From: a virus
Lineage: Duplodnaviria > Heunggongvirae > Uroviricota > Caudoviricetes
Strand: one strand, 5' to 3'
Virus record (IMG/VR): IMGVR_UViG_3300011187_000002
Length of the DNA stretch: 64,000 nt
Below the pieces are notes generated by a model. The model did no database searches. It saw only the letters and a program-made list of their open reading frames with translations, and was not told where the DNA came from. Below, piece after piece: positions 18,256 through 62,369 of this stretch. The position numbers were made by a program, and so were the translations under genes. Numbering within the stretch: position 1 is the stretch's first letter; the number at the start of each line of letters is the position of its first letter.

Positions 18256-18330
18256 CACGCCCGGCAGGATTCGAACCTGCGACCCGGAGGGTAGAAACCT
18301 CCTGCTCTGTCCTGACTGAGCCACGGGCGC
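18256..18330 (-). tRNA. tRNA-Arg(UCU)
   Basis: 75 nt; GCGCCCG acceptor, D-arm GCUCAGUCAGGACAGAGC, anticodon loop UUUCUAC, T-loop UUCGAAU. Confidence 0.8.
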
Positions 18331-36273: not shown

Positions 36274-37074
36274 TTACAGTTCGAACGTCTGGTGCTTTCG
36301 CGCTAGACGCATTCCCTGTAAGTCCTCGGGAGCGTTATCAGGATTTCCGTAATGCATCAAGTACGTTCTTTTGCGAACGGACTCAGGCAAATCCACCATC
36401 TCTTCGAAATGGGTGTGGACCGTGGCCGGATAACGCGGCATAAACATACAGTCGTGGAACACTATATCGAAGGCTTCAAGATCGACTGTCCGTTCCGATG
36501 TAGAGTCCGCTGAGAAGAACACCGTAGTACCCGTCTCTGATTCCAATACAAGGCCATAAGAGGTTTTATTTGGTACGTGGTTCGTCTTCACAAAGATGAA
36601 CTTGATACCTCCCACCTTTATCGGATCCTTGGGGGACTCGGAGACGTGGACATTGAAATACGTGTCCATATCGGCCTGTACCGCGTTGCCTTCGGCGTCC
36701 TGAATGTGTACCATACCGCCTTTAAGGCAATTGTGCCAGAGGTCCGGGTAAACATCGCTATCGTAACCTACGACGGCTCTGGAGGGCACCAGCAAGTTCG
36801 GTACGTACATATCAAACTTTTGCTTGGGACCGAGGAACAAGCCTCGGAACCCTAATTCTTCAAGACCGCCTACGTGATCTGCATGGACATGTGTTACGAT
36901 CACCCCGTCGATATCAAGAGGATCAACCCCAAGTTCATCTAAACTTTCGAGGGCCGTGCCCCCGCAATCAATCAACAGTTTTTTGCCCGAATCCGTTTGG
37001 ATCAAGACGTTGTTGTGAAAATTTTCGTGTGACCGGCTGAACGCGCCACCCGTACCTAAAAATGTAAATTTCAT
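36274..37074 (-). CDS. metallo-beta-lactamase fold hydrolase (RNase Z-like / phosphodiesterase)
   Basis: FLGTGGAFS ... VIVTHVHADHVGGL (HxHxDH) ... further His/Asp ligands. Confidence 0.65.
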   Translation of the reverse strand: MKFTFLGTGGAFSRSHENFHNNVLIQTDSGKKLLIDCGGTALESLDELGVDPLDIDGVIVTHVHADHVGGLEELGFRGLFLGPKQKFDMYVPNLLVPSRAVVGYDSDVYPDLWHNCLKGGMVHIQDAEGNAVQADMDTYFNVHVSESPKDPIKVGGIKFIFVKTNHVPNKTSYGLVLESETGTTVFFSADSTSERTVDLEAFDIVFHDCMFMPRYPATVHTHFEEMVDLPESVRKRTYLMHYGNPDNAPEDLQGMRLARKHQTFEL

Positions 37075-38513: not shown

Positions 38514-39623
38514 TTAGGCACCGGAAAGGTGGCGGATGATACGCTTGGTCAAGGTATCTTTGACGAACCCACTGAGCTTTTCGCGAAGCTCATCATCGTC
38601 GTCGGGAGAGTAAAGGAATCCGATAGGCACTTTGGCTCCACCGGCCCCCTGCTTGCCGCCTGCTACATCGGGTCCGAAGACCTTCTGACAGAACGTGTGG
38701 ACGTTTACCGAACTGTTGCGGCTACGAACGGACGCCTGAATGCACCCGTCAATCATAGCGAACACCACAACCGTTTCCACACCCTCCATGCGCAAGAACT
38801 CATCCGAAATAATCGGAAGTGCGTCACGCCGCTTGTCGGATAGAATCCCCAGATAGGAAATCAAAATAGACGCTTCCGACACCATGTTCTCGGCGGCCAA
38901 GGCCCTCAGCTTGAACAGGTAAGGTGGCAAGGGGTGGTCCAGAATATCACGATACTTTTTCGTGTCGATGTACGGGTGGAGGGCCGCCCACGCATCCCGA
39001 TCCAGATTACTTACGTTGTCGTCACCAAATTGGTGGGTATCATTTACGATCCCGAACAAGAGGGCGGTAGCTACGACAGCGCCCCTTTCGGTCGAAAAGT
39101 CCATCTCGAATTCCCGGATGTAATCCCAGATGATCGATGAACAAGCACCGCACGCACGAATATCCGTAACGGGGAGATCCAATTCAAACTGGTGGTGGTC
39201 AAATACGCAATGCCATTCGTCGATCAAGTCTTCGAAACCCGTGTTTTGCGGTACCGTATCTACCGTCACATAGGTCGAATACTTGGTGGGGTCAAAGTCG
39301 TCTCGCTGTTTCATCTGCACATTGAGGACGTTGACTTCCGTCTGATTCTGGGCATGGGAAATCTGGCCCGCGTAATAAATGTCACTCATCAGTCCATATT
39401 TGCACTCCAACAACCAACCCAAACCTAGAGCGCTACCAATGGCATCGGGATCCGGTGTGTGTTGCATCACAATACACACCTTCAAGTCTTCGGGGCAATC
39501 CGAAAAAAATTCATCGAACCGCCTGTAGCGATCCGATGTATCAACTGAAGCCATATCAGACTCGTCAAAAGACGTTTTTGAGACTGCGGATTTTGGTTCT
39601 ACGAGGTTCGCTTGACTTGTCAT
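38514..39623 (-). CDS. DHH/DHHA1 family phosphoesterase (NrnA/GdpP-like)
   Basis: motif I-II HTPDPDAIGSALGL, DHH motif CVFDHHQ, DHHA1 GGKQGAGGAKV. Confidence 0.7.
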   Translation of the reverse strand: MTSQANLVEPKSAVSKTSFDESDMASVDTSDRYRRFDEFFSDCPEDLKVCIVMQHTPDPDAIGSALGLGWLLECKYGLMSDIYYAGQISHAQNQTEVNVLNVQMKQRDDFDPTKYSTYVTVDTVPQNTGFEDLIDEWHCVFDHHQFELDLPVTDIRACGACSSIIWDYIREFEMDFSTERGAVVATALLFGIVNDTHQFGDDNVSNLDRDAWAALHPYIDTKKYRDILDHPLPPYLFKLRALAAENMVSEASILISYLGILSDKRRDALPIISDEFLRMEGVETVVVFAMIDGCIQASVRSRNSSVNVHTFCQKVFGPDVAGGKQGAGGAKVPIGFLYSPDDDDELREKLSGFVKDTLTKRIIRHLSGA

Positions 39624-40214: not shown

Positions 40215-40525
40215 GGAACTTCCTCCAGTGCTTCAATAAACCGTCCGTCCAAATAATAACCGTCGTAAGGAGCCTGATCGTCGTACAAATAAACGCGCAA
40301 CCCCTTGTATTCCTTGGCCCGGCTCGAAATGATGCAATACTCGTGGGGATCGAAATAGGCTATCGTACCGCAGGGATCGGCATACTGCCGAAATAGAAGC
40401 ATTAGTGATTGGTTGGCCTGCGCGGTATCAAAGTCGGCGTGCGGCACGTACAGAAGGTTTAGGTAATCGGTCTTCTGTTCCAACCGTATGTAATAACGCG
40501 GTCCGTCGTTGTCGAATTCAAACAT
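40211..40525 (-). CDS. hypothetical protein
   Basis: 104-aa ORF, ATGA overlap. Confidence 0.45.
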   Translation of the reverse strand: MFEFDNDGPRYYIRLEQKTDYLNLLYVPHADFDTAQANQSLMLLFRQYADPCGTIAYFDPHEYCIISSRAKEYKGLRVYLYDDQAPYDGYYLDGRFIEALEEVP

Positions 40526-41372
40526 CTTGACTCATGATCTGGTGAGCGCAATTACGTCCGTGTGCGATGGCCGCCTCTTTCAACGGGGAATTGAAATTCA
40601 GCTTGGAGTACCCAAGGTTCCGTAAAGGGCGGATCACCCGCACGTCTATATTCCTGTACCCGTCTTGGTTGTTCCTCGCAAGGAGCGTTCGGAGATCACT
40701 ACGTAACCTTGACATAGAACTAATATCGAGGATGCGAAGAGCCGTCTGTACCACTCCCGTAGGCAACGCGGGTTCCGGCTCATGAATTTCGAGAGATACT
40801 ACCACGATCTCGGTGGCCCCTAACAAGACAGCCGGTTTCAACGGAGCATACTGTAACAGAGATCCATCCCATTCGCCACGGGACCACGGAAACACCAAAG
40901 GGATTGCTGTCGAGGACATCACAGCATCCACGTCAAGCAAGTCTGGACGGTAAAGGCGACGGAACTTCGGGGGCAACCCTGTTACCCTGTTAGCGTAGCC
41001 CTGAAGGTGTCCAGTACGGACGTCCACACTGAAACACGTAACGGTTTGCGGTGAGTGCTGAAGTTCGTCGAAATCTACGTATTTGTTGAGGAGTTTCGAA
41101 AGAGGTGTGGTATCGAGGACATGGCTCCATTTCCAGAACTTCAGCCATTGGTTAGGGGGACGCCACCGGTACACATCCCGACTCGTAACCTTGCGCCAGA
41201 GTTCACACAGGTGCTCCGGTGATTTACCCGAAGCTAGACCAGCGGCATTGATGGCCCCCACCGATGATCCGCAAATGATCTCGGGTATCCACCCTATTTC
41301 GTAGAGGGCCTGAATCGCCCCGGCCTGAAAAGCACCGTGGGCGGCACCTCCTGATAAAACTAAAGCTCTCAT
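40518..41372 (-). CDS. patatin-like phospholipase
   Basis: oxyanion motif LSGGAAHGAFQAG and nucleophile elbow GSSVGA (GxSxG) at N-terminus. Confidence 0.7.
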   Translation of the reverse strand: MRALVLSGGAAHGAFQAGAIQALYEIGWIPEIICGSSVGAINAAGLASGKSPEHLCELWRKVTSRDVYRWRPPNQWLKFWKWSHVLDTTPLSKLLNKYVDFDELQHSPQTVTCFSVDVRTGHLQGYANRVTGLPPKFRRLYRPDLLDVDAVMSSTAIPLVFPWSRGEWDGSLLQYAPLKPAVLLGATEIVVVSLEIHEPEPALPTGVVQTALRILDISSMSRLRSDLRTLLARNNQDGYRNIDVRVIRPLRNLGYSKLNFNSPLKEAAIAHGRNCAHQIMSQDV

Positions 41373-41427
41373 ACGGCCTCCACTATACAGACCGTATAAG
41401 AGCTTTTTGGGTTGAGCTAGGCCCGGC

Positions 41428-43407
41428 CTAGGATTTTACGCGGCAAGTCACTGGAGCGTTGGTATCGTGGCTAGGGCAATGCTGGTACGAATTCTCTTGG
41501 GCTTTATCACACACACCACAGCCATCTCCTTGGTATTGTCCATTCTGGTAATCTACCAGATCGGGGTGGTTCCCTTGGATATCAATAATGTACTGACTGG
41601 CGGCATTCGCACCCTGCACCGTCAATGAACTGGAAAACGCTCCGCCCAACGAAACAAGATCCGGGTTTTGTTGAATATACATTACGCCACCCACGGACGT
41701 GACGGACTGAAAACCAGACACCGTGTAAAAATCCGTAAAAATGATTTGTAAATCCCCACCAACCGTAAGGAGTGCGTTGAAAGCATCCATTGTCAAGGGG
41801 TTAGTGGTGTTAGCCTCTTTGGCCCCATCGCGGATAAACATGTCACCACCAATAGTGGTCAAAGAGGGAAAGCCCACAAAATCAACAGCATCGCCTTGGT
41901 TAGTGACGAGATCCGTGACCACGAAATTATCCATTTCAAAATTACTCGTGACGGTTTCCAAATCCGCAAAAGCCACTTCGTTATTGACGTATTCAAAACG
42001 TGCCTTATTTCCCGTGCTATTGTTGAGGTCCAGACGAAAAGTCCCCAGAATCTCGCGCAACGTGTGGACTTCAAACAGTTGGGTAGCGGTTCCGGTGATG
42101 GTTACATTACCGTCTACCGAACAATACCCGGAAAGGGTAATCAAGTCTGAGTTTGTGTTTGCTGTGAAATCCCCCACGTACTGTTCACAGGGATTCAGGC
42201 ACGGGGCACCCCCGATGCACGTGTATCCAGTAGCAACAGCACAGGATGCCGTACAACCCGGCCCTCCATCACATTCTTCGCCTTCATTAACGTCGAGGTT
42301 GCCGTTACCGCAAGTCGCCCCGGTTTCCGTCACCACTTGGGTACACGAATCACACCAAGTGCAAGTCTGTCCATATCCGGGGACACATACGTCGCCCGTG
42401 CTCGCACCCTCGTCACAAACCTCTGCCGAATCCACGATACCGTCGCCGCAAACGTTTAGCTCCCGGCAACTGAACCCGTCGCCTGTGAAGCCGCTATCGC
42501 AAGCACATGAAAATGATCCGTAAGTGTTTGTGCATGTTGCGTTTGAATCGCAAACCGCTGTGCCGTTGGCGCACTCGTTGTTATCTACGCAAGCGTAAGT
42601 ATCGTTGTCTGTGTTAGGGTCGAGATCTTGGCAGGTGGTTCCCGTTTGGCAATTGGCGGACCCGTTGCTGCACTCATCCACGTTGGCGCAAGTGAAAGCC
42701 TGTTCCCCATTAAGAGGATCACCGTCTATACATTCGGTTCCAGCGCTGCAGGAATCCGTACCGTCAACACACTCATCCACGTTCAAACACTCATATCCGC
42801 CCAGCGTGTTGTTGCATTCGGTACCGTTTCCACAAACGTTGGGGTCGTCGCATTCGTTCACATCCTCACAGGTACCAGCCACATCCGCATAGCCCGCGTC
42901 ACAGGTACAGTCGTAATCGCCTTCGGTATCGGCACAAGTTGCGTTGGGACCACAAACATTGGGGTCGTTGCACTCGTCGATATTGGCGCACGCACCATTG
43001 ACCACCTCGTACCCCGGATCACAATCAATCTCAGGGGTGTCCGTTTCTACCTCGTCTCCCGTATCACCACCATCGTCTCCCGTATCGGTACTGGTGTCCT
43101 CCGCATCCATGCCGGTGTCGGTGTCCGTGTCCGTACCCGAATCTGTACCGATGTCTTGCTCTCCGGTATCGGTATCCGAACCCGCATCTTCACCCGTATC
43201 CAAACCGGTTTCCTGATCGGTGCCACTGTCCGTATCAGGAACAATTCCCGTGTCGCTGTCCACCCGAACTTCTTCAGTGTAAGTGTCCGTACCAGCATCA
43301 GGGCTGGTTACGGTGTCCGTGGTTACGGGATAGGTCGGAACCTCTTCGGTACAACCAAAGGCCGTCAAGACCAGAACAAGTAAGGCTAATGTCGTGTAGT
43401 GTCGCAT
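41428..43407 (-). CDS. secreted lipoprotein with D/T-rich acidic region and calcium-binding-EGF-like cysteine modules
   Basis: signal plus lipobox LLVLVLTAFGC; low-complexity TDTD/DTGT region; at least 5 modules of form (N/D)(I/V)(D/N)EC...C...C.N..G.Y.C.C (NIDECNDPNVCGPNATC...GDYDCTCDAGY; DVNECDDPNVCGNGTECNNTLGGYECL; etc.). Confidence 0.6.
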   Translation of the reverse strand: MRHYTTLALLVLVLTAFGCTEEVPTYPVTTDTVTSPDAGTDTYTEEVRVDSDTGIVPDTDSGTDQETGLDTGEDAGSDTDTGEQDIGTDSGTDTDTDTGMDAEDTSTDTGDDGGDTGDEVETDTPEIDCDPGYEVVNGACANIDECNDPNVCGPNATCADTEGDYDCTCDAGYADVAGTCEDVNECDDPNVCGNGTECNNTLGGYECLNVDECVDGTDSCSAGTECIDGDPLNGEQAFTCANVDECSNGSANCQTGTTCQDLDPNTDNDTYACVDNNECANGTAVCDSNATCTNTYGSFSCACDSGFTGDGFSCRELNVCGDGIVDSAEVCDEGASTGDVCVPGYGQTCTWCDSCTQVVTETGATCGNGNLDVNEGEECDGGPGCTASCAVATGYTCIGGAPCLNPCEQYVGDFTANTNSDLITLSGYCSVDGNVTITGTATQLFEVHTLREILGTFRLDLNNSTGNKARFEYVNNEVAFADLETVTSNFEMDNFVVTDLVTNQGDAVDFVGFPSLTTIGGDMFIRDGAKEANTTNPLTMDAFNALLTVGGDLQIIFTDFYTVSGFQSVTSVGGVMYIQQNPDLVSLGGAFSSSLTVQGANAASQYIIDIQGNHPDLVDYQNGQYQGDGCGVCDKAQENSYQHCPSHDTNAPVTCRVKS

Positions 43408-43465: not shown

Positions 43466-43494
43466 CATATACCCTAAAACGAGCAATTCGTCAA
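43466..43494 (-). promoter_or_regulatory. sigma70-like promoter (TTGACG-17-TATATG)
   Basis: minus strand TTGACGaattgctcgttttagggTATATG about 55 nt upstream of lipoprotein gene start 43407. Confidence 0.5.
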
Positions 43495-43581
43495 AAACTT
43501 TAGACATTCAACACACTTAGCCGTCCTCATTTGAGGACAGCTATCGGTAAGTACCTAATTTTGTTGAAGAAACCGGGATCC

Positions 43582-44669: not shown

Positions 44670-45161
44670 TTACGTAATAGCTTCCAGATGCGCCCACAAC
44701 GAGGCAGTCTCAGGGGCGTCTACGAAAAGGGCTTTGCGGAATTCGGGCTGCTCTTTGCAATACATACCGTACAGACCCCGCTTTCCCGTGGCTATGCAAT
44801 TCTCTACGTTGGCAATTCGATCGGCCAACTTAATGAGGGTGGCCGATACATCCCCCTTAATCTTGGGGTAAGTCTTAGCCTTACGTTCCTTACGGTTAGC
44901 GCCCGGCTCATCGGTCACACGTTGCACGATGTCGGCTACCACATCGCCCACAAGGGCTTGTACGTCTTCGACGGTGGTATCGGTATCCTCTACCACATCG
45001 TGAAGCCATGCGGCCACGTGAAGGTCGGTGTCGTCGAAACCAAAACGGGTCAGGACATTCGCTACCTGTACCAAATGGTACGTGTAGGGCTGACTTCCAT
45101 ACATCTGCCCTTTATGGGCTTTTGCCGCGAAGTCTTGCGCTGTCTGTATAGAGTCACTCAT
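44670..45161 (-). CDS. small alarmone hydrolase (RelA/SpoT-type HD domain (p)ppGpp hydrolase)
   Basis: 163 aa; HLVQVANVL...VAAWLHDVVEDT...IKLADRIANVEN matches SpoT hydrolase signature (H..HD.vEDT ... KLADRLhNmr). Confidence 0.75.
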   Translation of the reverse strand: MSDSIQTAQDFAAKAHKGQMYGSQPYTYHLVQVANVLTRFGFDDTDLHVAAWLHDVVEDTDTTVEDVQALVGDVVADIVQRVTDEPGANRKERKAKTYPKIKGDVSATLIKLADRIANVENCIATGKRGLYGMYCKEQPEFRKALFVDAPETASLWAHLEAIT

Positions 45162-45199: not shown

Positions 45200-46897
45200 T
45201 TATTCATCTTCGTCGGGCTTATTGTCCTTCGAAGCGAATCCGATAGCACACGAAGTCGTAATCAAAAGAGACGATACCGACACCGCGTTCTTGATTCCCT
45301 CTTCGACAACCAGTACCGGGTCAACGATACCAGCTTCAAAGCAGGGACGAATCTCTTCGGCGTTCACATCGAACACAAGATCCGGCGTCTCACGCTTTTC
45401 GACTTCCGTGCGGTACTGGTGCAACAGCACTTCCGGCGAAAGGCCCGCATTTTTCACGATTTGCTGGAACGGGGCTTCAAGAGCCTTGGCTACCAGAACC
45501 CAACCAGCTTTCTCTTCCTCGTTGACGAACACCGTCTCCTCGTCCTCCGCCAAGATGTTGAGCATGTTGGAGACTTCGATCAATGTGCAACCTCCTCCGG
45601 GACACACACCACCTTTCACAGCGGCTTTCGTGGCGCTGAGGGCGTCTTCCACACGGGCCTTGTACTCCTTGAGTTCAACCTCCGAATTGGCACCAACCCG
45701 GATCACAGCCATACCACCACCAAGCTGGCTGATACGCTGTTGGGTGAATTCCTGATCGTGCGGGCTACCGGAAAGTTTGACCTGTCCGCGAAGGACTTTG
45801 ATGCGTTGTGCAATAGCATCATCTTCGCCGTCACCACCCAAGAAGGTCGTGTGTTGCTTGGCAGCGGACGCCGTGGCGCAACCACCCAGATAGTCACCGG
45901 GATGTACCGACTTGAACGTGATTCCCTTTTCCGGGGAAATAACTTGACCACCCGTGAGGACCGCAAGGTCTTCGAGTACCTGCGACCGCTTGTCCCCAAT
46001 GCGTGGAGCTTTCACGGCACATGCCTTGAGCTTACCCTGCAAGTGGTTGGTAATCAGCATCGCAAGGGCTTCACCTTCCACATCATGTGCTACGACGAAC
46101 AAGGGGCGTCGCTGGGATGCCGCGTGCTCCATCGCACTCATGATGTCTTGGGCGGATGAAATGCGCTTGTCAGCCAACAGAACCAGAGGGTTCTCTAGGC
46201 TCACGACACCATCTTCTTCCATTCGGGCGAAGTCCGGGTTCAGGTATCCCCGGTCCAGTTGCATACCCTCGGAAAACTCCAGAACGGTGTTGGTGGACTT
46301 GCCTTCTTCAACGGAGATCACACCACCCTTGCCGACTTTTTCCATCGCTTCGGCGATCATTTCACCGAGGGCTTCGTCGCCGTTCGAAGAGATAGTAGCA
46401 ACCCATTTGATTTCTTCGACGTTATCGACCTCTTTGGCGAGGTAACGGAGGTAATTCACACCCTCGGCTACGGCCCGGTCCATACCGCGCTTCAGAGGGA
46501 TCGGGGAAAGTCCTGAAGCCACCATCTTGCGGGCTTCGTTGAAAAGCGCCTGTGCGATAACCGTTGCGGTCGTCGTACCGTCACCTGCCATTTCAGCCGT
46601 GCGGATAGCCGCCTCTTTGATCGTCTGAGCGCCCATGTTCTCGAATCGGTCTTCGATTTCGATTTCACGAGCCACGGACACGCCGTCTTTGGTGACGTTA
46701 GGCTGACCGAACTGCTTTTGCAACGCAACGTTACGTCCACGCGGCCCCAGCGTTACCTTTACCGCATCGGCCAACGTGTTTACGCCCGCTTGCAAACGAT
46801 TGAGCGCTTTGTTGTCAAATAGAATCGTCTTTTTCTGTCCCACAAATTCCTCCGTAATTAACCAAATAAACCCGATATATCGGGCGGGCTTGCCCAC
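45200..46897 (-). CDS. groL: chaperonin GroEL (Cpn60)
   Basis: 565 aa; canonical GroEL sequence (AVKAP..GDKRSQVLEDLAVLTGG, GGGMAVIRVGA); lacks C-terminal GGM repeats. Confidence 0.9.
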   Translation of the reverse strand: MGKPARYIGFIWLITEEFVGQKKTILFDNKALNRLQAGVNTLADAVKVTLGPRGRNVALQKQFGQPNVTKDGVSVAREIEIEDRFENMGAQTIKEAAIRTAEMAGDGTTTATVIAQALFNEARKMVASGLSPIPLKRGMDRAVAEGVNYLRYLAKEVDNVEEIKWVATISSNGDEALGEMIAEAMEKVGKGGVISVEEGKSTNTVLEFSEGMQLDRGYLNPDFARMEEDGVVSLENPLVLLADKRISSAQDIMSAMEHAASQRRPLFVVAHDVEGEALAMLITNHLQGKLKACAVKAPRIGDKRSQVLEDLAVLTGGQVISPEKGITFKSVHPGDYLGGCATASAAKQHTTFLGGDGEDDAIAQRIKVLRGQVKLSGSPHDQEFTQQRISQLGGGMAVIRVGANSEVELKEYKARVEDALSATKAAVKGGVCPGGGCTLIEVSNMLNILAEDEETVFVNEEEKAGWVLVAKALEAPFQQIVKNAGLSPEVLLHQYRTEVEKRETPDLVFDVNAEEIRPCFEAGIVDPVLVVEEGIKNAVSVSSLLITTSCAIGFASKDNKPDEDE

Positions 46898-47742
46898 AGA
46901 TCACTAAGACCGTGATCGCTAACTTCAACTGCTGGTTCAACTTTTTGCCGCTTTATCTCCGCCTTTTCCACATCGTACTCAAACACGACCTCCGTCTGTG
47001 ACAACGGCAGGTCTCGGAGCTTCGCTTTAGCCTCCGTCGTATCCACGCCGTACTTATCATGAAAACGTTTCAGCCGGGAGTACGTCCGCATCCGGTCGTG
47101 TGTATGTAAAATTTCAACGGGCAACTCGCCCTTGAGCTTTTTGTCCAAAACATCGAGCGGCGGCGAACTGTCCACTGTAATCAATCGCTCTCTATTGTAC
47201 CCATACATACAAATGTCAAGGTCAAATGTTGCTACGATTTCATCCAGCGTCCTACAATGCGTGTAGCACATTATCTGGACGGGATACCCAAAAGCAACGC
47301 CACCCCTATCAAGGGTCGTATCAAATGGGTCGTCTGGTCCAATATGCCCGTTAGCAATCCGGTCACGGCGATCTACTTCATCGATATCAACCACTTCACC
47401 TAACACAACCACAGCATCCTTGTCTTGGATACGAGTGATCGACGTGGAATCTACAACCGACCATACGTGATGAGTCGGGCTGAAATGTGATAGGATCTGA
47501 CTGACTTTGGTGCGAAGTAATTGCCCCACACTGTCTTTCATGAGGCGGGCAAAGACGCCACGCTTGTTACCCCCGGTGATAAATACGTCGATGTCCTTCG
47601 GGTCGTTACCGGTAAGGATGTCCCTTACCGCACCGCCCGCGATCATCATATTGTGTGGACCGGTATCGGGGAAAGCCTTTTGGAGTTCCGTATAAACGAA
47701 ATCCAGCTTCCGAAGACGTGCCAAAGGGGTTGTGATCGTCAT
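46858..47742 (-). CDS. class II nucleotidyltransferase, minimal CCA/poly(A)-polymerase-family head-neck protein
   Basis: 294 aa; motif A MMIAGGAVRDILTGNDPKDIDVFI (GGxVRD...DxD), motif B DRRDRIANG (RRD). Confidence 0.6.
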   Translation of the reverse strand: MTITTPLARLRKLDFVYTELQKAFPDTGPHNMMIAGGAVRDILTGNDPKDIDVFITGGNKRGVFARLMKDSVGQLLRTKVSQILSHFSPTHHVWSVVDSTSITRIQDKDAVVVLGEVVDIDEVDRRDRIANGHIGPDDPFDTTLDRGGVAFGYPVQIMCYTHCRTLDEIVATFDLDICMYGYNRERLITVDSSPPLDVLDKKLKGELPVEILHTHDRMRTYSRLKRFHDKYGVDTTEAKAKLRDLPLSQTEVVFEYDVEKAEIKRQKVEPAVEVSDHGLSDLWASPPDISGLFG

Positions 47743-48893: not shown

Positions 48894-49607
48894 TTAGATT
48901 TCGAGGAAAGCGAAGTCGTGAGGTCCGCCGTGGCGGATCATATCAACACATCTCCATTCACATCCTCGGTACGTGCCACTCATCTTGCGATGATAATGGC
49001 CGAAATACCAACGTTCGGGGTGAACCATATCTAATACGTGTTGAAGGAACTTACGATTCCCGTCCACCACATCATTGCCAGTATATACGCAGGCTTCCGA
49101 AACGTCAATACCACCGGGACAGTCGTGGCTTATGACGGTGTGGATAGGGATCACCTCCGGGTCTGTCTTGGCCCGTTCTTGATACGTATCAATAGCTTGG
49201 AGGATATACTCTTGCTCGGCATACGATATGTTCTCTTCCGGCCACCAATCAAGGCCCCGCTGTCTATGCTCGGCGTCGATGGAACGTGCTCCACCGATGA
49301 ATAAAATACCCTGTCGGATAGCTCCCCGTGGGATATACTCCCATTGGCCATACACCAGTTCGTCGGATTCCAGTTCACGGAGCATTTCGTGGTCGTCGTG
49401 GTTCCCGTCGATAAACCAGCACGGGTGATCGAACTCACGTTCCCATCTATTTTTGGGGTCCAGACGAGGGAAAAAGCCGAAGTCCCCCAACTGAATCATG
49501 AGATCAATCCGGTCCTTATAAACTTGACGGATCACATCGTAAAGGGCGTCAGCTTGGTCGAAACGTCCGTGTATGTCGCCTAACAGCAGGATGTTCATTG
49601 GTACCAC
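48894..49607 (-). CDS. calcineurin-like metallophosphoesterase (Ser/Thr phosphatase family)
   Basis: motifs LLGDIHG, GDFG, GNHDDHE, GHYH. Confidence 0.75.
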   Translation of the reverse strand: MVPMNILLLGDIHGRFDQADALYDVIRQVYKDRIDLMIQLGDFGFFPRLDPKNRWEREFDHPCWFIDGNHDDHEMLRELESDELVYGQWEYIPRGAIRQGILFIGGARSIDAEHRQRGLDWWPEENISYAEQEYILQAIDTYQERAKTDPEVIPIHTVISHDCPGGIDVSEACVYTGNDVVDGNRKFLQHVLDMVHPERWYFGHYHRKMSGTYRGCEWRCVDMIRHGGPHDFAFLEI

Positions 49608-50811: not shown

Positions 50812-53800
50812 TTACAGTGAGTTCGCGCTTCCGATCGTGTACGTGATCGGGATGTACTTCAAGGGGAAGATCGGTGCGTAAAAAGCACTGACTCGAAGTA
50901 CGGTCGGATCGTTAGGATCCGGCTCGGCACGAACACCCTTGAAGTCTACAATGATCTGCTGCTCCATAAGGGTGTTAAGTAGTCCCGAAAGGGCCAACTC
51001 TACATCCTGCGCCCGGCTGGTGAGGAACTTCAAACCGATGAAACGGTCCAAGCTCTTGCGTGCCTGTTGCTGGACGTGATCCTTAATAGCGACAATCGAA
51101 GGCGTTGACGTGAACCGGTTGGTAACGTCGGTGGTTAGACCGTCACGTACCTGTAGGAACGATCCTCGATCTTCGAGGACTGTAACACCACCGACAGCAA
51201 GCTGGTTCTTTTCGATCTCATCAAGCGATCGGTTAAGGCGTCTGAAACCGACAAGGCGACGTCGTGTTAACGGGGTTGCAACATCGAACTGCGGACTTAC
51301 CAGAACACCGGCAAGTGCCGCCGCTACATACGTTCCGTCGACGATGAAACTCTCATCTTCCCCAAGCTCGTTCGTCAGTGTGACGATTGCGCTATCGGGG
51401 TATACGAGAATCGACCGTCCGCTCTTGAGGCTCTTCGCGATGTTAGCCGCGTCTTCAGGACGAGTGCCCGAAGCAACACCGAAGATGCACCGGCGTTCCT
51501 GACGGAAACGCTGGCTCGACTGGATCTCGGAGTGGTTAACATAGGCACCCATAACATCCGGGTCCGTCGTAAGAGGGACCAAAAGATCAGGGGTAATGCC
51601 CGAAGCCAGCGGCTTTTTAAGCTCTTCCAAAGCGTCCATGAACGCCGCTGTAGGAGCTTGACTGAAGCCGGGGGTCTTTAGTACCTGCTTGCACCCGACG
51701 ATGACCGCACCGTTCAACACAGCGAGGTATGACGCCAAAGTAAGCGGGTTCTCAGCGGACAGCTTGCCGTAATTGCGCTGAATGTCCCGGAACCGAGTGA
51801 ACAGACGGGTTGAGAAATCCGTCTTTTCGTATTCGTAAGAGATATAGTAGAAATCTCCGATTCCCGGCTCGGCACCTGACTTGTTGTAAGTCGTTACTAC
51901 CGCCGTATCACCTACTCCGATATCCGTCGTGTTGTCCACCCGAACTTCAGTGCCCGGAACGGCCTTGACGACTTTGCTGAATCCCGTAGTGAAAGTATCC
52001 GACACATTCAGTGTGAAAGACTGTCCGTCCGTATAATCGCCGGTACCAGCCTCCAAAATCGTGAACCGAAGTCCCGTGTTGGAATCCTGATACGTTTGAC
52101 CAACCACACCTTCGCCGGTTGAGCCGTTGGTAGCCGAAGAGGCCACATCGAACCCATCCCGTGCATCTGTTCCCGCAACCGAATCACCGGCTTCGATCCC
52201 AATGCCCGTATCGTTAAGTGCCGAATCCGTTCCGGTACCAAACGTGAAGGATGCTGTGGAACCTTCCGCGAATGTAGTCAAGCGGAGGTAAGTCCCTTCG
52301 CCCGGCTTTACAAACGTATCAGCAAAGGCCGATGCAATGTACTCGGTAGCAGCCGTTGGGCTGTACCAATCCGAGGCTTGACTGTTCAGAACAGCAGCGA
52401 TCTCGTGGGCTTCAACACGTCGTTGCGAGGCACTATCACCTTCGCTGAATCCAACGTACTGGTTAGCTGTTCCGGCACGAACCTCAATGCGACTCTGGTT
52501 CGTGTCCAAGTTGGAAGTGATGCGGATCTTGTCCGTATCTTCTACGGCCACCGTGGCATCTGTGAGGGCTGCATCCAAAGCGGTCTGGATTGCGCTTACC
52601 GAGGCTAGGCTCGATAGATCCACCGTATGCTCAGTGCCATTTACCGCTACAACAAAGTCTGCGGTAGAAGCGCTATTAAGGGAAGCAAGGTCTGAGGCCG
52701 AGATCGCACCACTAAGAAGCGTAGCTCCTTTGTTAACAGCTTTCTCGGTGCCCTCGGCATACTGGAAGTCAGTGAAACCGAGAGTCCCGTTAGCGTTGCC
52801 GTCCTGCACCCTGATATGGGATGCATCTGCAGGTCCCGAAGGAGACACTTTCGATCGAAGGAGGAAACGCTCATCATCAGCACCCGAATCCCGGTAGCTC
52901 GCTACCAGAATGTTCTCATGCGAATCACCGTTGGTGAAACCAAGGACCGGGTTGGCTGTGCCTGTACCAATCGTAAGGCTTTCAGAAGCCAAGAGTTGGA
53001 CTTTACCCGAACCATCATCAACCGCATGTCCGTCGTTGCCAACAACTGCCGGATCACCTACCGTAAGATTTGCGTTGGTGATCTCGGTGTTAATCAACGT
53101 AGCTAATTGTGCAGCCGTTTGACCTGTCAATGTTCCAAAATCAACATTAACGGGGGTACCGTTCATGTCAAAATCGAAAAGATCATCGGACGCATCGGTG
53201 AATGCAAAGCTCTCCGTTGATGTACCAGTAATAGTAGCATCAGTCGGTACCGACCGCCAGATATCTTCGGCAATGTCAGCACCTGTTCGGCCCAACCCTG
53301 CTGTAAGAGTGACGCTATAGTCCGTACCGTCTACTTCAAACTCAAATACGTCGTTTTCGGTAGCAACGATGTCGTAAGTCGAACCATCGTCATGTCCGTC
53401 AGAAACGGTCACACCGAAAGCAGACTGGTTAAGGTCTACCGTTAGGCTGTTACCGTCTACATCCACATACAAGGTGTCAGACGCATCCGCATAGAGCGAA
53501 TACGGGTCAGCCGCGTAATTCGTGAATACAGCAGGCTCGGCCCCGATCTCTTTGAACGTCACCGTCACGGTTTCGTCCACACCATCAGCGCCCGCAATGA
53601 ATGCGTCCGGGTTAGTTTCCACACCGGAAGGCCACTGGATCGTTTCGTTAACTCCGGTGGTACCGAAATCAACCCCGAAAAGCTGCTCGCCTCTGCGGGA
53701 ACTGTAAACGCTATACTGGCCGGGTGTCGTAGCCGTCGACTGGCTCAAGACTTCGAAGGTTAGTTCATCATCCTGAAGCTGGTTGTACCAATACGTTGCC

Positions 53801-55365: not shown

Positions 55366-55437
55366 GACGAACCTCACTTATCGCTTAAATGATATGCGAT
55401 CAACCACTGAAGGCAAATATCAATAAAATACCGGGCG

Positions 55438-60935: not shown

Positions 60936-62369
60936 TCACCGCTTGCGATACAGAACCTTGACTGCTTCGGTAAGGTTCCGAGGGCTTTTCCGCAGGCCCG
61001 GCTGCCGAAGCAAAACGTCGCGAGCCACTTCCATGAGGTTGCGGATTTCCCGGCCTTGGAGGTCAAATTCACCAATCAACGCTTGGGTATCCATCTGGCG
61101 GCCCGGCTGTTTCAGGAGGTCAACGAACTTGTCCGCCTCCCGTGCTTCCATCTCTAGGGCAACCGTGCGCAACCGGGCCATCTGAGCGTCGTCTAGGAAA
61201 CGAAGCCGTGTGTTCAACGGGAGGCCGATATCCATCATGTCGAAAAGGAACAGGACCTTCGCATCCCGACCCGCCCAATTCACAAGGGTTTTACGGAAAG
61301 GCTTATTGCTTTCGAGCATCTCTTTGACCACATCGAGCAGGCCCAGATTCTTGAGCACTTTCAGGGTGGTCTTCGACTGGCTCATCTGTAAAATGTCATT
61401 GACGAGGATCTCGCTAATGGCATTTTGCGGGGCCTTCTTGAGCTTATCAGCGTTTCGACGAATAGCCTTGGCGACAGGTGGATCAATCTTGAAGCCGTAC
61501 TTGACCAAGAACTTCACCGCCCGCAACATCCGGGTGGGGTCATCCGAAAATGTCTTGTCCGGGTCGCTAGGACACTTCATAACGCCTTCTTGAAGGTCAT
61601 CCACGCCACAACCCGTGAGGTCAATAATCTCTGCCTTATCCGGCCCGTGAGCAAGCTCTGAGAGCTGCCACAGCAACGTATTGAACGTGAACTCACGCCG
61701 TTTGATATCCTCTTCGATAGTCGAAGGCTCTACCATGTGTGGCTTGTATCCTTTCCCCTCGTCACCGCCGTAGGACTCTTTGCGGGCATTGGCGATTTCG
61801 ATAACTTCGCCTTGGAGGTCCGCGCCGTCCACTACCCACGATTCATTGACGGACAGGATAGCTACGCCGTACTGATTCGTCTGGAGGCTGGTCTTAGCCG
61901 GAATCGCCCCCTGTAACTTCTTGGCGAACCATGCCGAGTCCTTTCCCCCAAGCGCTACCGAATCTATCACGACGTCGATATCTTTGATGGGCCGGTCGAT
62001 GATGAAATTGCGCACAGCACCGCCTACTACATATACGTGTTCCCCAACCCCTAGCCGCTTGGCGACTTTGGATAGAAACCGCATCAGGGCGATCGACTGT
62101 TCATGTGCTTGTTCGGAAATCACGGTACGTCTCGAAGCTAAACGGGTCTGTTCCCGGTAAAAGAACGACCCATCACGGAACGTTAAATCACCCATGTTAA
62201 CGAGGGATTCGATAATATCCCCCATCAGGTCAGGTGCATCGGTCATAGCTTCTACCAAATCATCATATTGGTTGAAAGCCTGTTCCATAACATTCGATGC
62301 GGTACGATTACGTCCCGAGGCTAGAGATAGGAGGTAGCGTCGTGCGACCTTTTTAGATAGATCAATCAT
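60936..62369 (-). CDS. class II tRNA nucleotidyltransferase (CCA-adding enzyme / poly(A) polymerase family)
   Basis: 477 aa; motif A VYVVGGAVRNFIIDRPIKDIDVVI, motif B DIKRREFTFNTL. Confidence 0.7.
   Translation of the reverse strand: MIDLSKKVARRYLLSLASGRNRTASNVMEQAFNQYDDLVEAMTDAPDLMGDIIESLVNMGDLTFRDGSFFYREQTRLASRRTVISEQAHEQSIALMRFLSKVAKRLGVGEHVYVVGGAVRNFIIDRPIKDIDVVIDSVALGGKDSAWFAKKLQGAIPAKTSLQTNQYGVAILSVNESWVVDGADLQGEVIEIANARKESYGGDEGKGYKPHMVEPSTIEEDIKRREFTFNTLLWQLSELAHGPDKAEIIDLTGCGVDDLQEGVMKCPSDPDKTFSDDPTRMLRAVKFLVKYGFKIDPPVAKAIRRNADKLKKAPQNAISEILVNDILQMSQSKTTLKVLKNLGLLDVVKEMLESNKPFRKTLVNWAGRDAKVLFLFDMMDIGLPLNTRLRFLDDAQMARLRTVALEMEAREADKFVDLLKQPGRQMDTQALIGEFDLQGREIRNLMEVARDVLLRQPGLRKSPRNLTEAVKVLYRKR

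What the first reader, a model, noticed from the sequence alone, without database searches (positions are those of the whole stretch)
41428..43407. Phage lipoprotein built from calcium-binding-EGF-like modules and a leucine-periodic C-terminal domain
After a lipobox signal (LLVLVLTAFGC) and a long D/T-rich acidic stretch there are at least five modules with the cbEGF signature (N/D-x-D/N-E-C … C … C-x-N-x-x-G-x-Y-x-C-x-C-x-x-G-Y). Examples are NIDECNDPNVCGPNATCADTEGDYDCTCDAGY and DVNECDDPNVCGNGTECNNTLGGYECL. A Cys-rich furin-like stretch follows, then a roughly 250-aa region with L..I.G.L.I..N..L periodicity like a beta-helix or receptor L-domain. cbEGF arrays are a metazoan extracellular hallmark and are very rare in prokaryotic viruses. 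The gene has its own consensus promoter and hairpins on both sides. It may be a host-surface adhesin, superinfection-exclusion factor or decoy.
Basis: partly seen in the sequence, partly recalled or inferred. Interest (0 to 1): 0.65.

Follow-up and report, generated by a model that had tools for sequence, protein, structure and literature searches.

The report
Huge-phage lipoprotein with cbEGF stalk
A very large uncultured phage, probably infecting predatory Myxococcota, encodes a lipid-anchored protein that holds a fast-evolving receptor-L-domain "head" on a calcium-binding, disulfide-rich EGF stalk; the domains are known bacterial ones, the combination is new for phages, and its role (probably binding something at the infected cell's surface) is untested.

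Summary

**Anatomy**
- Lipobox signal peptide.
- 109-aa acidic D/T linker.
- Five cbEGF-type modules. Only two are complete 6-Cys cbEGFs; three are 4-Cys truncations.
- Two DUF4215-like CGxG repeats, not a furin-like domain.

**Distribution**
- The gene is not a one-off. Orthologs sit at the same position (after Cpn60, before p104-p124-DHH) in three huge-phage lineages of 231-437 kb.
- A phage sharing no other detected gene carries the same plan.
- A sister phage keeps 98.5%-identical flanking DNA, but its stalk is made of MopE/DxDxDG repeats.
- The head evolves fastest among orthologs.

**Origin**
- All modules are typical of bacterial surface proteins, especially Myxococcota.
- The phage's Lon protease is closest to Bradymonadales.
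- cbEGF is therefore not metazoan-specific here. It is absent from deposited phage genomes and PHROGs.

**Likely role (inferred)**
- An envelope-displayed binding protein.
- Superinfection exclusion or receptor masking is the leading guess.

New variant of a known kind; moderate interest.

The parts
43466..43494 (-). Sigma-70-like promoter candidate: TTGACG (43494-43489), 17-nt spacer, TATATG (43471-43466).
   Evidence: Read from the sequence. Not called by the consensus scan, because the last base of the -10 is G. The -10 region is conserved and is a perfect TATAAT in the sister contig L004. Function is inferred.
43518..43543 (-). Upstream hairpin (11-bp stem, 4-nt loop) between the preceding gene's stop codon (43582) and the promoter candidate.
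   Evidence: Inverted repeat I3. RNA fold dG -20.5 kcal/mol, z -4.0, with 0 of 200 shuffles as stable. No U-run follows it.
43351..43407 (-). Signal peptide with lipobox (aa 1-19, LTAFG|C). Cys19 is the predicted lipidated N-terminus of the mature protein.
   Evidence: PROSITE-type lipobox rule satisfied here and in P0002, P0010, L050 and L052. An AAGGA Shine-Dalgarno-like sequence lies 7 nt upstream of the ATG.
43024..43350 (-). Acidic, low-complexity D/T/G/E linker (aa 20-128), with 37 D+E against 1 K+R. Its length varies between strains.
   Evidence: Composition. Variant P0273 has a 20-aa TD/SG expansion, and this is the only region that differs within the population. Hexamer repeats are present. 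An acidic linker of 57-109 aa is present in all five family members.
42985..43023 (-). Half-EGF hairpin (aa 129-141, CDPGYEVVNGAC), resembling the C5-C6 sub-domain of an EGF.
   Evidence: Read from the sequence. Conserved in P0010. No Pfam hit on its own. pLDDT above 90 in the stalk model.
42865..42984 (-). cbEGF module A (aa 142-181), complete with six Cys.
   Evidence: EGF_CA 31.3 bits, profile positions 2-43 of 43. Matches the PS01187-like and Asx-hydroxylation-like patterns. pLDDT about 90-96.
42784..42864 (-). cbEGF module B (aa 182-208), truncated after Cys4.
   Evidence: EGF_CA 31.3 bits, but only profile positions 1-28 of 43. Matches the PS01187-like pattern. pLDDT about 88-90.
42586..42783 (-). 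Modules C and D (aa 209-241 and 242-274): four Cys each, a cbEGF-type N-terminal D-E-C motif, and a lengthened C3-C4 loop.
   Evidence: EGF_CA 16.2 and 15.2 bits, below the cutoff of 27. They match only the relaxed pattern. Conserved in P0010 and L050. Among 269 fetched proteins this module type occurs only in P0001, P0010 and P0077. pLDDT 46-75.
42466..42585 (-). cbEGF module E (aa 275-314), complete with six Cys and a GDG motif.
   Evidence: EGF_CA 44.5 bits and EGF_3 48.7 bits. Up to 72% identical to single modules of metagenomic, Ciona and MYXO-CTERM proteins. pLDDT 86-94.
42190..42465 (-). Two DUF4215-like Cys-rich repeats (aa 315-406; CGDGIVDSAEVCD... and CGNGNLDVNEGEECD...).
   Evidence: Pfam DUF4215 scores only 12 bits against a cutoff of 27. 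BLASTP and phmmer align the region to the CGDG repeats of PF13948-annotated proteins P0073, P0086, P0041 and P0052, with E from 1e-13 to 6e-19 in a small database. Not resolved by AF2, pLDDT below 50.
41608..42189 (-). Receptor-L-domain-type right-handed beta-helix 'head' (aa 407-600), including a probable N-cap Cys pair (C407, C429).
41428..41607 (-). C-terminal cap and tail (aa 601-659 plus stop codon), with four Cys (630, 633, 644, 655).
   Evidence: The four Cys are conserved in P0002. This is the most diverged part between the sister alleles: 32% identity, with saturated dS. pLDDT 57-69.
41362..41406 (-). Downstream 18-bp hairpin followed by UUUU. A probable terminator of this gene that also buries the Shine-Dalgarno sequence (GGAGG) and AUG of the next gene (patatin).
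   Evidence: Inverted repeat I1. dG -28.9 kcal/mol, z -6.6. 68 of 69 nt are identical in the sister contig L004.

Best explanation
What it is (largely shown): a conserved, fast-evolving accessory gene of a clade of huge tailed phages that probably infect Bradymonadales or other Myxococcota.

Its product is exported by a Sec/lipoprotein signal peptide and lipid-anchored through Cys19. It consists of four parts:
1. A 109-aa strongly acidic, disordered tether.
2. A disulfide-rich stalk: a half-EGF, five calcium-binding-EGF-type modules and two DUF4215-like repeats. The mature protein has 44 Cys, so all can pair.
3. A receptor-L-domain beta-helix head.
4. A small Cys-knotted cap.

How it most likely works (inferred): the anchor fixes it in the envelope of the infected cell. 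The acidic tether and the Ca2+-stiffened stalk hold the L-domain head tens of nanometres from the membrane. The head binds a surface or periplasmic ligand.

The stalk looks like a generic spacer. In a sister phage it is replaced by a different Ca2+-binding-type Cys-rich repeat (MopE/DxDxDG), while the anchor, tether and head are kept. The head is the specificity determinant, because it is the fastest-diverging folded part.

The most likely biological role is to occupy or mask a receptor on the infected cell. That would give superinfection exclusion and/or protect progeny virions from adsorbing to debris.
For: Export and anchoring:
- The lipobox rule is met in all five family members, although signal-peptide identity is only 33-50%.
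- Every member has an even number of mature Cys (44, 30, 56, 56, 52). This fits full disulfide pairing in an oxidising compartment.

Stalk:
- EGF_CA is above the Pfam threshold.
- The Ca-binding N-terminal motif is present in all five modules.
- All stalk Cys are conserved between orthologs that are 34% identical.
- P0002 has MopE at 169.8 bits over five stretches, with six DxDxDG motifs in place of the EGF/DUF4215 stalk. It still has the same lipobox, an acidic linker and a 66%-identical head.

Head:
- L052's head matches our head profile by hhalign at 96.5% probability, E 8e-10.

Host-interaction signature:
- Syntenic in three huge-phage lineages, in the order Cpn60, target, p104, p124, DHH.
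- Only about 34% identical, while its neighbours are 55-64% identical.
- The head is 21-41% identical against 38-69% for the stalk.
- Between the sister alleles the flank is 98.5% identical, yet in-gene dS is saturated. The head core has dN/dS about 0.19, so it is under purifying selection and functional.
- The layout is moron-like: a promoter-like site plus a strong terminator hairpin. In L052 it is the only gene on its strand.
- Neighbouring genes are accessory or counter-defence types, not structural or lysis genes.

Host:
- All 11 organism-named best hits of the phage Lon protease are Bradymonadales or Myxococcota.
- All organism-named bacterial EGF/DUF4215 hits are Myxococcota.

Precedent for the role (my own knowledge): T5 Llp and phi80/N15 Cor are phage lipoproteins that block FhuA.
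Against: - No experimental datum bears on localisation, Ca2+ binding, ligand or phenotype.
- Known exclusion lipoproteins such as Llp and Cor are tiny and share no sequence or architecture with this protein. There is no PHROG hit.
- The disulfide topology could not be checked, because model coordinates are not returned.
- The DUF4215-like region and modules C and D are poorly modelled.
- Surface exposure, as opposed to a periplasmic orientation, is unknown.
- The +2 residue is not conserved (T, G or I), so the sorting rule is unclear.
- Conservation in every member of the clade could equally point to a core infection function rather than exclusion.
- Host assignment rests on one gene plus domain repertoire. 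The window's GC content of about 52% is, from my own knowledge, lower than that of cultured Bradymonadales.
- The flank comparison with L004 covers only 69 nt downstream and 62 nt upstream.
Confidence: 0.4

Rival explanations
1. A cell-cell or cell-prey adhesin, or recognition factor. The phage decorates its predatory, contact-dependent host with a new surface adhesin. This would change aggregation, prey contact or kin contact, for example to bring susceptible cells close to the infected cell. It would resemble the head-on-stalk design of myxobacterial TraA.
For: - It has the same head, stalk and lipid-anchor logic as TraA. TraA's Cys-rich repeats were proposed to be a rigid stalk presenting a variable head (PMC3325183).
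- Bacterial relatives are secreted surface proteins carrying T9SS tails.
- The probable host order is a contact-dependent predator (PMC7460792).
- The head is fast-evolving and the alleles are swappable.
Against: - There is no homology to TraA: no TIGR04201, PA14 or MYXO-CTERM, and NCBIfam gives no hit.
- The orientation is inverted, with an N-terminal anchor.
- The benefit to a lytic huge phage is speculative.
- Within a population the head is invariant, so there is no sign of a polymorphic recognition locus at that scale.
Confidence: 0.25
2. A periplasm-facing inhibitor or modulator. The lipoprotein stays inside the periplasm and uses its long tether and stalk to reach and bind a host envelope machine, such as a type IV pilus, secretin, peptidoglycan synthase or outer-membrane porin. 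This would be part of host takeover or envelope stabilisation during a long huge-phage infection.
For: - Most bacterial lipoproteins face the periplasm (general knowledge).
- The known phage lipoproteins Llp and Cor act from the periplasmic face (my own knowledge).
- The gene lies among host-takeover and counter-defence genes.
- Its conserved position in the clade suggests a routine infection function.
Against: - The combined tether, seven-module stalk and head look too long for a periplasm. This is an inference from typical module sizes.
- cbEGF, DUF4215 and Recep_L modules occur in bacteria in secreted or surface proteins with MYXO-CTERM or T9SS tags.
Confidence: 0.15
3. A eukaryote-directed mimic. 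The cbEGF array was acquired from, or mimics, animal extracellular-matrix proteins. It would let the infected bacterium (or the released protein) bind animal cells or matrix, in the way ankyrin-carrying phages of sponge symbionts act.
For: - The highest-scoring database hits by summed score are metazoan: Ciona, Branchiostoma, fibrillin and LTBP-like proteins.
- Module E is 70% identical to a Ciona module.
- The fold of the head is best matched by animal insulin-receptor, IGF1R and ErbB L domains.
Against: - Metazoan hits rank high only because they contain many repeats. Per module, the bacterial and metazoan best hits tie at 68% and 70%.
- All non-EGF parts are of bacterial type.
- The sister allele has no EGF at all but keeps the head.
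- The probable host is a free-living saline-habitat predator.
- No evidence of an animal-associated sample could be obtained.
Confidence: 0.07
4. A virion component: a tail fibre or decoration adhesin that binds the host surface during adsorption.
For: - The gene lies about 7 kb from the sheath gene.
- It is fast-evolving and shows module swapping, as receptor-binding proteins do.
Against: - A conserved lipobox signal peptide directs it out of the cytoplasm, where tailed-phage virions assemble.
- Twenty-two predicted disulfides would not form in the cytoplasm.
- There is no PHROG tail or fibre hit.
- The immediate neighbours are non-structural.
- Receptor-L domains, not tailspikes, are the top structural matches.
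Confidence: 0.05

Closest known systems
Myxococcota secreted 'EGF domain-containing' or 'DUF4215 domain-containing' proteins (for example Sandaracinaceae MAG proteins P0031 and P0037, Polyangium sp. 15x6 P0041, MYXO-CTERM protein P0052)
   Same: They have tandem cbEGF modules of the D-x-D-E-C...NATCTNT-x-GSF-x-C-x-C-x-x-G-F/Y-x-GDG type, followed by CGDG...E-x-CD Cys-rich repeats. Identity is 30-35% over the whole stalk, and single modules reach up to 68%.
   Different: They use a C-terminal MYXO-CTERM or other anchor instead of an N-terminal lipobox. They have no receptor-L-domain head. Their EGF modules are all 6-Cys, whereas the phage proteins carry three 4-Cys truncated modules. They are cellular, not phage, genes.
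Bacterial Recep_L_domain (PF01030) surface proteins, such as T9SS-sorted multi-repeat proteins (P0124, P0175, P0181) and the lipoprotein P0121
   Same: They share the L..V.G.L.I..N..L beta-helix repeat at about 30% identity (E down to 1e-39 by summed repeats). P0121 also has a lipoprotein-like N-terminus, and P0138 combines MopE with Recep_L as the sister allele P0002 does.
   Different: They usually carry many tandem L-domain units and a T9SS tail. The phage head is a single divergent unit that falls below Pfam detection, and it has an irregular first half and a Cys-knotted cap.
Insulin receptor, IGF1R and ErbB L1 domains next to a Cys-rich region
   Different: Sequence identity is about 14%. 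The domain order is reversed (Cys-rich region, then L). The Cys-rich part is EGF/DUF4215-type, not furin-like, and there is no PF00757 hit. There is no second L domain, FnIII domain or kinase.
Fibrillin, LTBP and fibulin cbEGF arrays
   Same: The calcium-binding consensus and Cys spacing of modules A, B and E match. Tandem arrangement suggests a Ca2+-stiffened rod; this is established for fibrillin (my own knowledge) and inferred here.
   Different: There are only five modules, three of which lack the C5-C6 sub-domain. Two have a C3-C4 loop that is 5-6 residues longer. The context is prokaryotic and lipoprotein.
Phage-encoded envelope lipoproteins used for superinfection exclusion (T5 Llp, phi80/N15 Cor); other phage lipoproteins (o-spanins, lambda Bor)
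   Same: They are phage-encoded, lipobox-anchored, and act at the envelope of the infected or lysogenic cell. The gene here has a moron-like layout with its own promoter-like site and terminator.
   Different: Those proteins are roughly 60-100 aa long with no stalk or head. There is no sequence similarity and no PHROG hit. No i-spanin partner gene lies next to this gene. Their functions are recalled from my own knowledge, not tested here.
Myxococcus xanthus TraA kin-recognition receptor
   Same: It works on the same architectural principle: a variable binding head held on a Cys-rich repeat 'rigid stalk' with a lipid-type anchor at the cell surface (PMC3325183). It comes from the same host phylum as inferred here.
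   Different: It is not homologous: TraA has a PA14 head, TIGR04201 repeats and a C-terminal MYXO-CTERM, none of which is detected here. The polarity is the opposite.

Membership tests
Calcium-binding EGF (Pfam PF07645 EGF_CA; PROSITE PS01187-type) | Profile score above Pfam's gathering threshold | tested here: met
   The whole protein scores 55.7 bits against a cutoff of 27. Modules scanned alone score A 31.3, B 31.3 and E 44.5 bits, while C 16.2 and D 15.2 are below threshold.
Calcium-binding EGF (Pfam PF07645 EGF_CA; PROSITE PS01187-type) | N-terminal Ca2+-ligand motif [DN]-x-[DN]-[EQ]-C, plus C3-x-[DN]-x4-[FY]-x-C4 | tested here: met
   The N-terminal motif occurs at aa 142, 182, 209, 242 and 275. 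The full PS01187-like pattern matches modules A, B and E. Modules C and D match only when the C3-C4 loop is allowed to be longer. The pattern was written from memory of PROSITE.
Calcium-binding EGF (Pfam PF07645 EGF_CA; PROSITE PS01187-type) | Six cysteines per module (C1-C3, C2-C4, C5-C6) | tested here: inconclusive
   Modules A and E have six Cys in canonical spacing. Modules B, C and D have only four and lack C5-C6. Disulfide connectivity could not be read because model coordinates are not returned.
Calcium-binding EGF (Pfam PF07645 EGF_CA; PROSITE PS01187-type) | Actual Ca2+ binding and Ca2+-dependent rigidity | not testable with these tools
   This needs biochemistry, for example Ca2+ titration, protease protection or SAXS.
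DUF4215 / Myxococcus cysteine-rich repeat (PF13948, TIGR02232) | Profile score above threshold | tested here: not met
   PF13948 scores 12 bits here, 16 bits in P0010 and 19.7 bits in L050, against a cutoff of 27. NCBIfam gives no hit.
DUF4215 / Myxococcus cysteine-rich repeat (PF13948, TIGR02232) | CG[DN]G...E-x-CD repeat motif and pairwise homology to annotated members | tested here: met
   The motif occurs twice, at aa 320 and 366. BLASTP and phmmer align aa 315-410 onto the CGDG repeats of the PF13948-annotated proteins P0073, P0086, P0041 and P0052, with E from 1e-13 to 6e-19 against a small local database. On balance it is a divergent relative, not a certified member.
Furin-like cysteine-rich region (PF00757) | Profile match | tested here: not met
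   No hit at E up to 1 for the whole protein, or up to 10 for the region alone.
Receptor L domain (PF01030) | Direct profile match | tested here: not met
   No PF01030 hit at E up to 1.
Receptor L domain (PF01030) | Homology to certified members | tested here: met
   phmmer of aa 407-659 against 1.84 billion representatives gave 1,438 hits at E up to 1e-3. Seven of seven sampled carry PF01030 at 59-211 bits. P0121 (PF01030) hits at E 7e-6.
Receptor L domain (PF01030) | Single-stranded right-handed beta-helix fold of L domains | tested here: met
Bacterial lipoprotein (signal peptidase II substrate) | Lipobox and signal-peptide rule (PROSITE PS51257-type) | tested here: met
   The rule is met in the window protein, P0002 and P0010, and also in L050 and L052. 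The pattern was written from memory of PROSITE. No dedicated predictor was available.
Bacterial lipoprotein (signal peptidase II substrate) | Lipid modification and membrane localisation | not testable with these tools
   This needs globomycin or palmitate labelling and cell fractionation.
Phage superinfection-exclusion lipoproteins (Llp, Cor) | Sequence or family relationship | tested here: not met
   No PHROG family at E up to 1, and no tblastn hit in 50,697 phage records.
Phage superinfection-exclusion lipoproteins (Llp, Cor) | Blocks adsorption or DNA entry of the same or related phages | not testable with these tools
   This needs a cultured host and phage.
Spanin (o-spanin or u-spanin) | A small outer-membrane lipoprotein next to or embedded in an i-spanin gene, or a lipoprotein with a C-terminal transmembrane segment | tested here: not met
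   The protein is 659 aa and has no second hydrophobic segment. The neighbours are patatin, a 242-aa protein without Pfam hits, HD_4 and Cpn60, and none looks like an i-spanin partner.
TraA-type myxobacterial recognition receptor | PA14 head, TIGR04201 repeats and MYXO-CTERM | tested here: not met
   No such Pfam or NCBIfam hits. It is an architectural analogy only (PMC3325183).

The most novel reading that the evidence does not exclude
The gene family is a phage-borne counterpart of polymorphic cell-surface recognition receptors such as TraA. Huge phages of predatory Myxococcota would impose a new surface identity on the infected cell: a fast-evolving L-domain head on an interchangeable Ca2+-binding stalk. 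This would redirect cell-cell contact (kin contact, prey contact or outer-membrane exchange) in favour of phage spread. It would be the first case of a phage manipulating bacterial social or predatory contact behaviour with a dedicated receptor.
Probability: 0.1. Interest if true: 0.8.

Novelty: new variant of a known kind. Interest (0 to 1): 0.5.

Why it matters
- **A new architecture for a known class.** Phage-encoded envelope lipoproteins are known as small exclusion or lysis factors. This family is ten times larger and is built like a eukaryote-style receptor ectodomain from bacterial extracellular modules.
- **Held across a clade.** It is conserved at one locus across a clade of 231-437-kb phages.
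- **Separable parts.** It offers a natural experiment in modular design. The stalk is swappable, since two unrelated Ca2+-binding Cys-rich repeat types serve in sister phages. The head evolves fast.
- **A tractable entry point.** It could show how huge phages remodel the host surface.
- **A host lead.** The Lon protease evidence gives a concrete, testable host hypothesis (Bradymonadales) for a huge-phage clade with no cultured member.
- **A correction.** cbEGF arrays should not be read as evidence of metazoan origin.

Tried and rejected
- **Direct family assignment of the C-terminus.** Pfam, NCBIfam and PHROGs gave nothing. Exhaustive phmmer plus structure prediction resolved it instead.
- **Close relatives.** None in INPHARED by tblastn. 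None in IMG/VR with the whole protein or the head alignment, nor in two scans of GTDB representative genomes. The head scan of JGI metagenome contigs found nothing, and the whole-protein scan returned only generic EGF arrays. These scans depend on exact peptide patterns, so they are weak negatives. A scan with a cbEGF-module alignment did find four viral contigs.
- **Halophile explanation for the extreme acidity.** Rejected, because the window's proteins overall have a D+E to K+R ratio of only 1.36.
- **Module phylogeny, bacterial against metazoan.** Uninformative at 40 aa, with the best named hits at 68% and 70%.
- **Stalk structure.** The AF2 stalk model does not resolve the DUF4215-like region or modules C and D. 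Coordinates are not returned, so disulfide geometry could not be checked.
- **AFDB fold search.** That library was not available.
- **BFVD viral structures.** No significant match.
- **Hypervariability within a population (DGR-like).** Rejected. The variants differ only in linker length.
- **Defence or anti-defence family.** No PADLOC hit for the target.
- **Functional linkage to patatin, HD_4 or p242.** Rejected. These neighbours are absent at the orthologous loci L003 and L050.
- **Host or lineage from the Cpn60 and sheath proteins.** Uninformative or too distant.
- **Sample accessions in the literature.** Nothing found.
- **Literature on cbEGF in phages.** Nothing found.

Full report
**1. 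The observation**

A single ORF of 659 aa occupies exactly 41428-43407 on the minus strand.

- **N-terminus.** MRHYTTLALLVLVLTAFGC fits the PROSITE-type lipoprotein rule: Arg in the n-region, an uncharged h-region, and T-A-F-G-C with Cys19. No other hydrophobic segment exists.
- **Linker.** Residues 20-128 are 25% Thr and 24% Asp, with 37 acidic and 1 basic residue.
- **Whole mature protein.** It has 118 D+E against 11 K+R and a pI of about 4. This is not a proteome-wide property, since the window's proteins overall have a ratio of 1.36.
- **Pfam.** EGF_CA scores 55.7 bits against a cutoff of 27, and EGF_3 scores 46.3 bits. There is no Furin-like or Recep_L_domain hit. NCBIfam and PHROGs find nothing.

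**2. The Cys modules**

I scanned the modules one at a time, checked them against PROSITE-style patterns written from memory, and counted Cys.

| Module | Residues | Cys | EGF_CA result |
|---|---|---|---|
| A | 142-181 | 6 | 31.3 bits, complete |
| B | 182-208 | 4 | 31.3 bits, ends after Cys4 (profile positions 1-28 of 43) |
| C | 209-241 | 4 | 16.2 bits, below threshold; C3-C4 loop 5-6 residues longer |
| D | 242-274 | 4 | 15.2 bits, below threshold; C3-C4 loop 5-6 residues longer |
| E | 275-314 | 6 | 44.5 bits (EGF_3 48.7), complete |

- Modules C and D keep the N-terminal N-V-D-E-C motif.
- A half-EGF hairpin (aa 129-141) precedes the array.
- Among 269 fetched proteins, a 4-Cys module followed directly by the next calcium-binding motif occurs only in this protein, its ortholog P0010 and one Deltaproteobacteria MAG protein.
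- The AF2 stalk model is confident for A, B and E (pLDDT 86-96), marginal for C and D (46-75) and unresolved beyond aa 332.
- The 'furin-like' stretch (aa 315-406) holds two CG[DN]G...E-x-CD repeats. Pfam DUF4215 reaches only 12 bits.
- That region nevertheless aligns to the CGDG repeats of PF13948-annotated proteins, including a Polyangium 'DUF4215 domain-containing protein'. The E-values run from 1e-13 to 6e-19 against a small local database.
- I therefore call it DUF4215-like, not furin-like.

**3. The C-terminal domain**

- A word-indexed search found one relative, a bacterial lipoprotein-like protein carrying PF01030 (E 7e-6).
- An exhaustive phmmer search of 1.84 billion representatives found 1,438 hits. 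Only P0002 was close (65%).
- The rest are long multi-repeat proteins at about 30% identity. Seven of seven sampled carry Recep_L_domain.
- Of those seven, four also have a T9SS sorting tail and one also has MopE repeats.
- An AF2 model built on a 20-sequence alignment has pLDDT 81 and pTM 0.84.
- The top 36 Foldseek PDB hits are all insulin-receptor-family L domains, though with weak E-values.
- No viral structure in BFVD matches significantly.
- The domain is therefore a divergent bacterial-type receptor L domain, ending in a four-Cys cap.

**4. Context and distribution**

*The window is a huge tailed phage.*
- It carries a 1,521-aa sheath-like protein, topoisomerase II, a Lon protease, Cpn60, six tRNAs, Apyc1 and an intein-split Volactin-like actin.
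- The same phage occurs in several samples. The longest contig is 230,823 bp.

*Orthologs hold a fixed position.*
- The order Cpn60, target, p104, p124, DHH, HNH, p362 recurs in two other lineages.
- These are P0010 on 366- and 373-kb contigs (the same phage as IMG/VR fragment L049) and a 754-aa protein on a 437-kb IMG/VR contig, L050.
- HD_4, p242 and patatin, the window's immediate neighbours, are absent at those loci. They are therefore not functional partners.
- The window protein and P0010 are collinear, with every stalk Cys conserved.
- They are only 34% identical, whereas the neighbouring proteins are 55-64% identical.
- By region, the head is always the most diverged folded part: 21-41% identity, against 38-69% for the stalk.

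*The plan also occurs in a phage with no other detected shared genes.*
- L052 (128 kb; helicase, RuvC, head and tail genes) encodes a 618-aa protein.
- It has a lipobox, an acidic linker, a Cys-rich stalk with two cbEGFs and an L-domain head. hhalign gives the head 96.5% probability and E 8e-10.
- It is the only gene on its strand there.

*All five proteins share three features.*
- A lipobox.
- A 57-109-aa linker with at least 23 acidic and at most 2 basic residues.
- An even number of mature Cys.

**5. A swapped allele**

- Contig L004 (P0002, 664 aa) carries the same locus from a sister phage. Its 69 nt downstream of the stop codon are 98.5% identical to the window and include the hairpin and the patatin start.
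- The -10 promoter region is conserved as well.
- Inside the gene, the signal peptide, linker and stalk are saturated or unrelated.
- The stalk is made of five MopE repeats (169.8 bits) with six DxDxDG motifs instead of EGF/DUF4215.
- The head is 66% identical overall, with a gradient along its length:

| Head region (aa) | Identity | dS | dN |
|---|---|---|---|
| 420-520 | 86% | 0.50 | 0.09 |
| 521-600 | 64% | 1.5 | 0.32 |
| 601-659 | 32% | saturated | 0.78 |

- This pattern is cassette replacement by recombination, with purifying selection on the head core. It is not in-place hypermutation.
- Within each population the folded domains are invariant and only the linker length varies.

**6. Expression signals**

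- Upstream lies TTGACG-17 nt-TATATG (43494-43466). It is near-consensus and the scan did not call it.
- A strong hairpin sits before it (dG -20.5 kcal/mol, z -4.0).
- Downstream is an 18-bp hairpin (dG -28.9 kcal/mol, z -6.6) followed by UUUU. It also buries the patatin gene's Shine-Dalgarno sequence and AUG.
- The gene thus looks like an autonomous, moron-like transcription unit. This is inferred.

**7. Origin and host**

- By summed score the top hits are metazoan multi-EGF proteins. Dozens of bacterial proteins also hit, and every organism-named one is Myxococcota, often with DUF4215 or MYXO-CTERM.
- Per module, the best named bacterial and metazoan hits tie at 68% and 70%.
- The phage Lon protease has phage-clade relatives at 60-76% identity, then bacterial Lons at 58-59%.
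- All 11 organism-named bacterial hits are Bradymonadales or Myxococcota: Persicimonas, Lujinxingia, Bradymonas, plus Bradymonadaceae, Bradymonadales and Myxococcota MAGs.
- Bradymonadales are contact-dependent predatory bacteria of saline habitats (PMC7460792).
- A Myxococcota host is therefore the best inference. It rests on one gene plus the module repertoire.
- The sheath relates the phage to uncultured huge phages: LR745208.1 at 41% identity and Tunturi_5 at 33%.

**8. Mechanism**

*Shown or strongly indicated:*
- An exported, lipobox-bearing precursor.
- A disordered acidic tether.
- A disulfide-rich stalk with calcium-binding motifs.
- An L-domain head.
- Conservation in a phage clade.
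- Accelerated divergence concentrated in the head.
- An interchangeable stalk.

*Inferred:*
- The protein is lipid-anchored in the infected cell's envelope.
- The tether and Ca2+-stiffened stalk act as a spacer.
- The head binds a ligand.

I commit to receptor occupation or masking (superinfection exclusion, or protection of progeny from debris) as the most likely role, at about 0.4. The argument is by analogy with phage lipoproteins Llp and Cor (my own knowledge) and from the arms-race signature.

The rivals are:
- An adhesin or recognition factor altering cell contact, a TraA-like design (PMC3325183): 0.25.
- A periplasmic modulator of an envelope machine: 0.15.
- A eukaryote-directed mimic: 0.07.
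- A virion adhesin: 0.05.

**9. Novelty and verdict**

- Every domain family is known, and phage lipoproteins are known.
- The combination is new for phages. There is no PHROG, no deposited phage relative and no paper found.
- The 4-Cys cbEGF truncations and the stalk swap are unusual.
- I rate it a new variant of a known kind, with interest 0.5.
The metazoan framing and the furin-like label are not.

Noticed in passing
window 58216-60489 (-): A 757-aa protein with an HTH_23 N-terminus and a Volactin domain (PF25216, 239 bits; an archaeal-type actin family). The Volactin domain is interrupted by an intein carrying a LAGLIDADG_3 homing endonuclease. An actin-like protein with an intein in a huge phage may be relevant to phage cytoskeleton or compartment biology.
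   Followed up: no
window 18743-21100 (-): A full-length Lon protease. Its organism-named best hits (58-59% identity) are all Bradymonadales or Myxococcota, which is the only host clue obtained. Some relatives (P0290 at 1,129 aa, P0360 at 1,155 aa) are much longer; P0290 carries a LAGLIDADG-type domain (PF14528), suggesting an intein.
   Followed up: partly
window 40518-41372 (-) and hairpin 41362-41406: A patatin-like phospholipase resembling CBASS-type effector phospholipases (PADLOC PDLC00758, E 2e-12). Its Shine-Dalgarno sequence and start codon are sequestered in the 18-bp hairpin that ends the cbEGF gene (dG -28.9 kcal/mol). The hairpin is conserved in sister contig L004. This may be translational control of a potentially toxic enzyme. 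The gene is absent at the orthologous loci L003 and L050.
   Followed up: partly
window 36274-37074 (-): An anti-Pycsar Apyc1 homolog (PF23023, 114.6 bits against a cutoff of 50). It lies in a stretch of accessory nucleotide-signalling genes: DHH/DHHA1 at 38514-39623, HD_4 at 44670-45161, Metallophos at 48894-49607, and a Gad2-like/PolyA_pol NTase at 46858-47742.
   Followed up: no
window 7280-8263 (-) and 8286-8807 (-): A second envelope-directed pair. One is a 327-aa SPFH/Band_7 protein with a lipoprotein-like N-terminus (MMKRALALLFLIFFATFNTGC; PHROG 200 'lipoprotein'). It is preceded by a 173-aa protein with an N-terminal transmembrane helix.
   Followed up: no
window 50812-55377 (-): The tail-sheath homolog is 1,521 aa. 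Only its last roughly 350 residues match ordinary sheaths (phrog_2839). The full length is shared with LR745208.1 (485 kb, 41% identity) and Tunturiibacter phage Tunturi_5 (33%).
   Followed up: no
window 13391-18330 (-): A cluster of six tRNA genes (Leu-TAA, Leu-CAA, Thr-TGT, His-GTG, Thr-CGT, Arg-TCT). There are also two PolyA_pol/CCA-adding-type nucleotidyltransferases, at 46858-47742 and 60936-62369.
   Followed up: no
L051:7386-8630 (+), IMG/VR UViG_3300045009_000365: Another viral-contig lipoprotein built from 'eukaryote-like' matrix modules: a lipobox, DUF7151, collagen triple-helix repeats (54 bits), one cbEGF (34.5 bits) and an unassigned C-terminal domain.
   Followed up: no
L025:273-2840 (+) and L025:3096-6488 (+), metagenome contig Ga0070727_10005399: A high-GC bacterial contig with two adjacent lipobox proteins. 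One has a long acidic D/A/G/P linker and the other has cbEGF-type modules. The lipobox-plus-acidic-linker layout therefore also occurs in cellular genomes of this kind.
   Followed up: no
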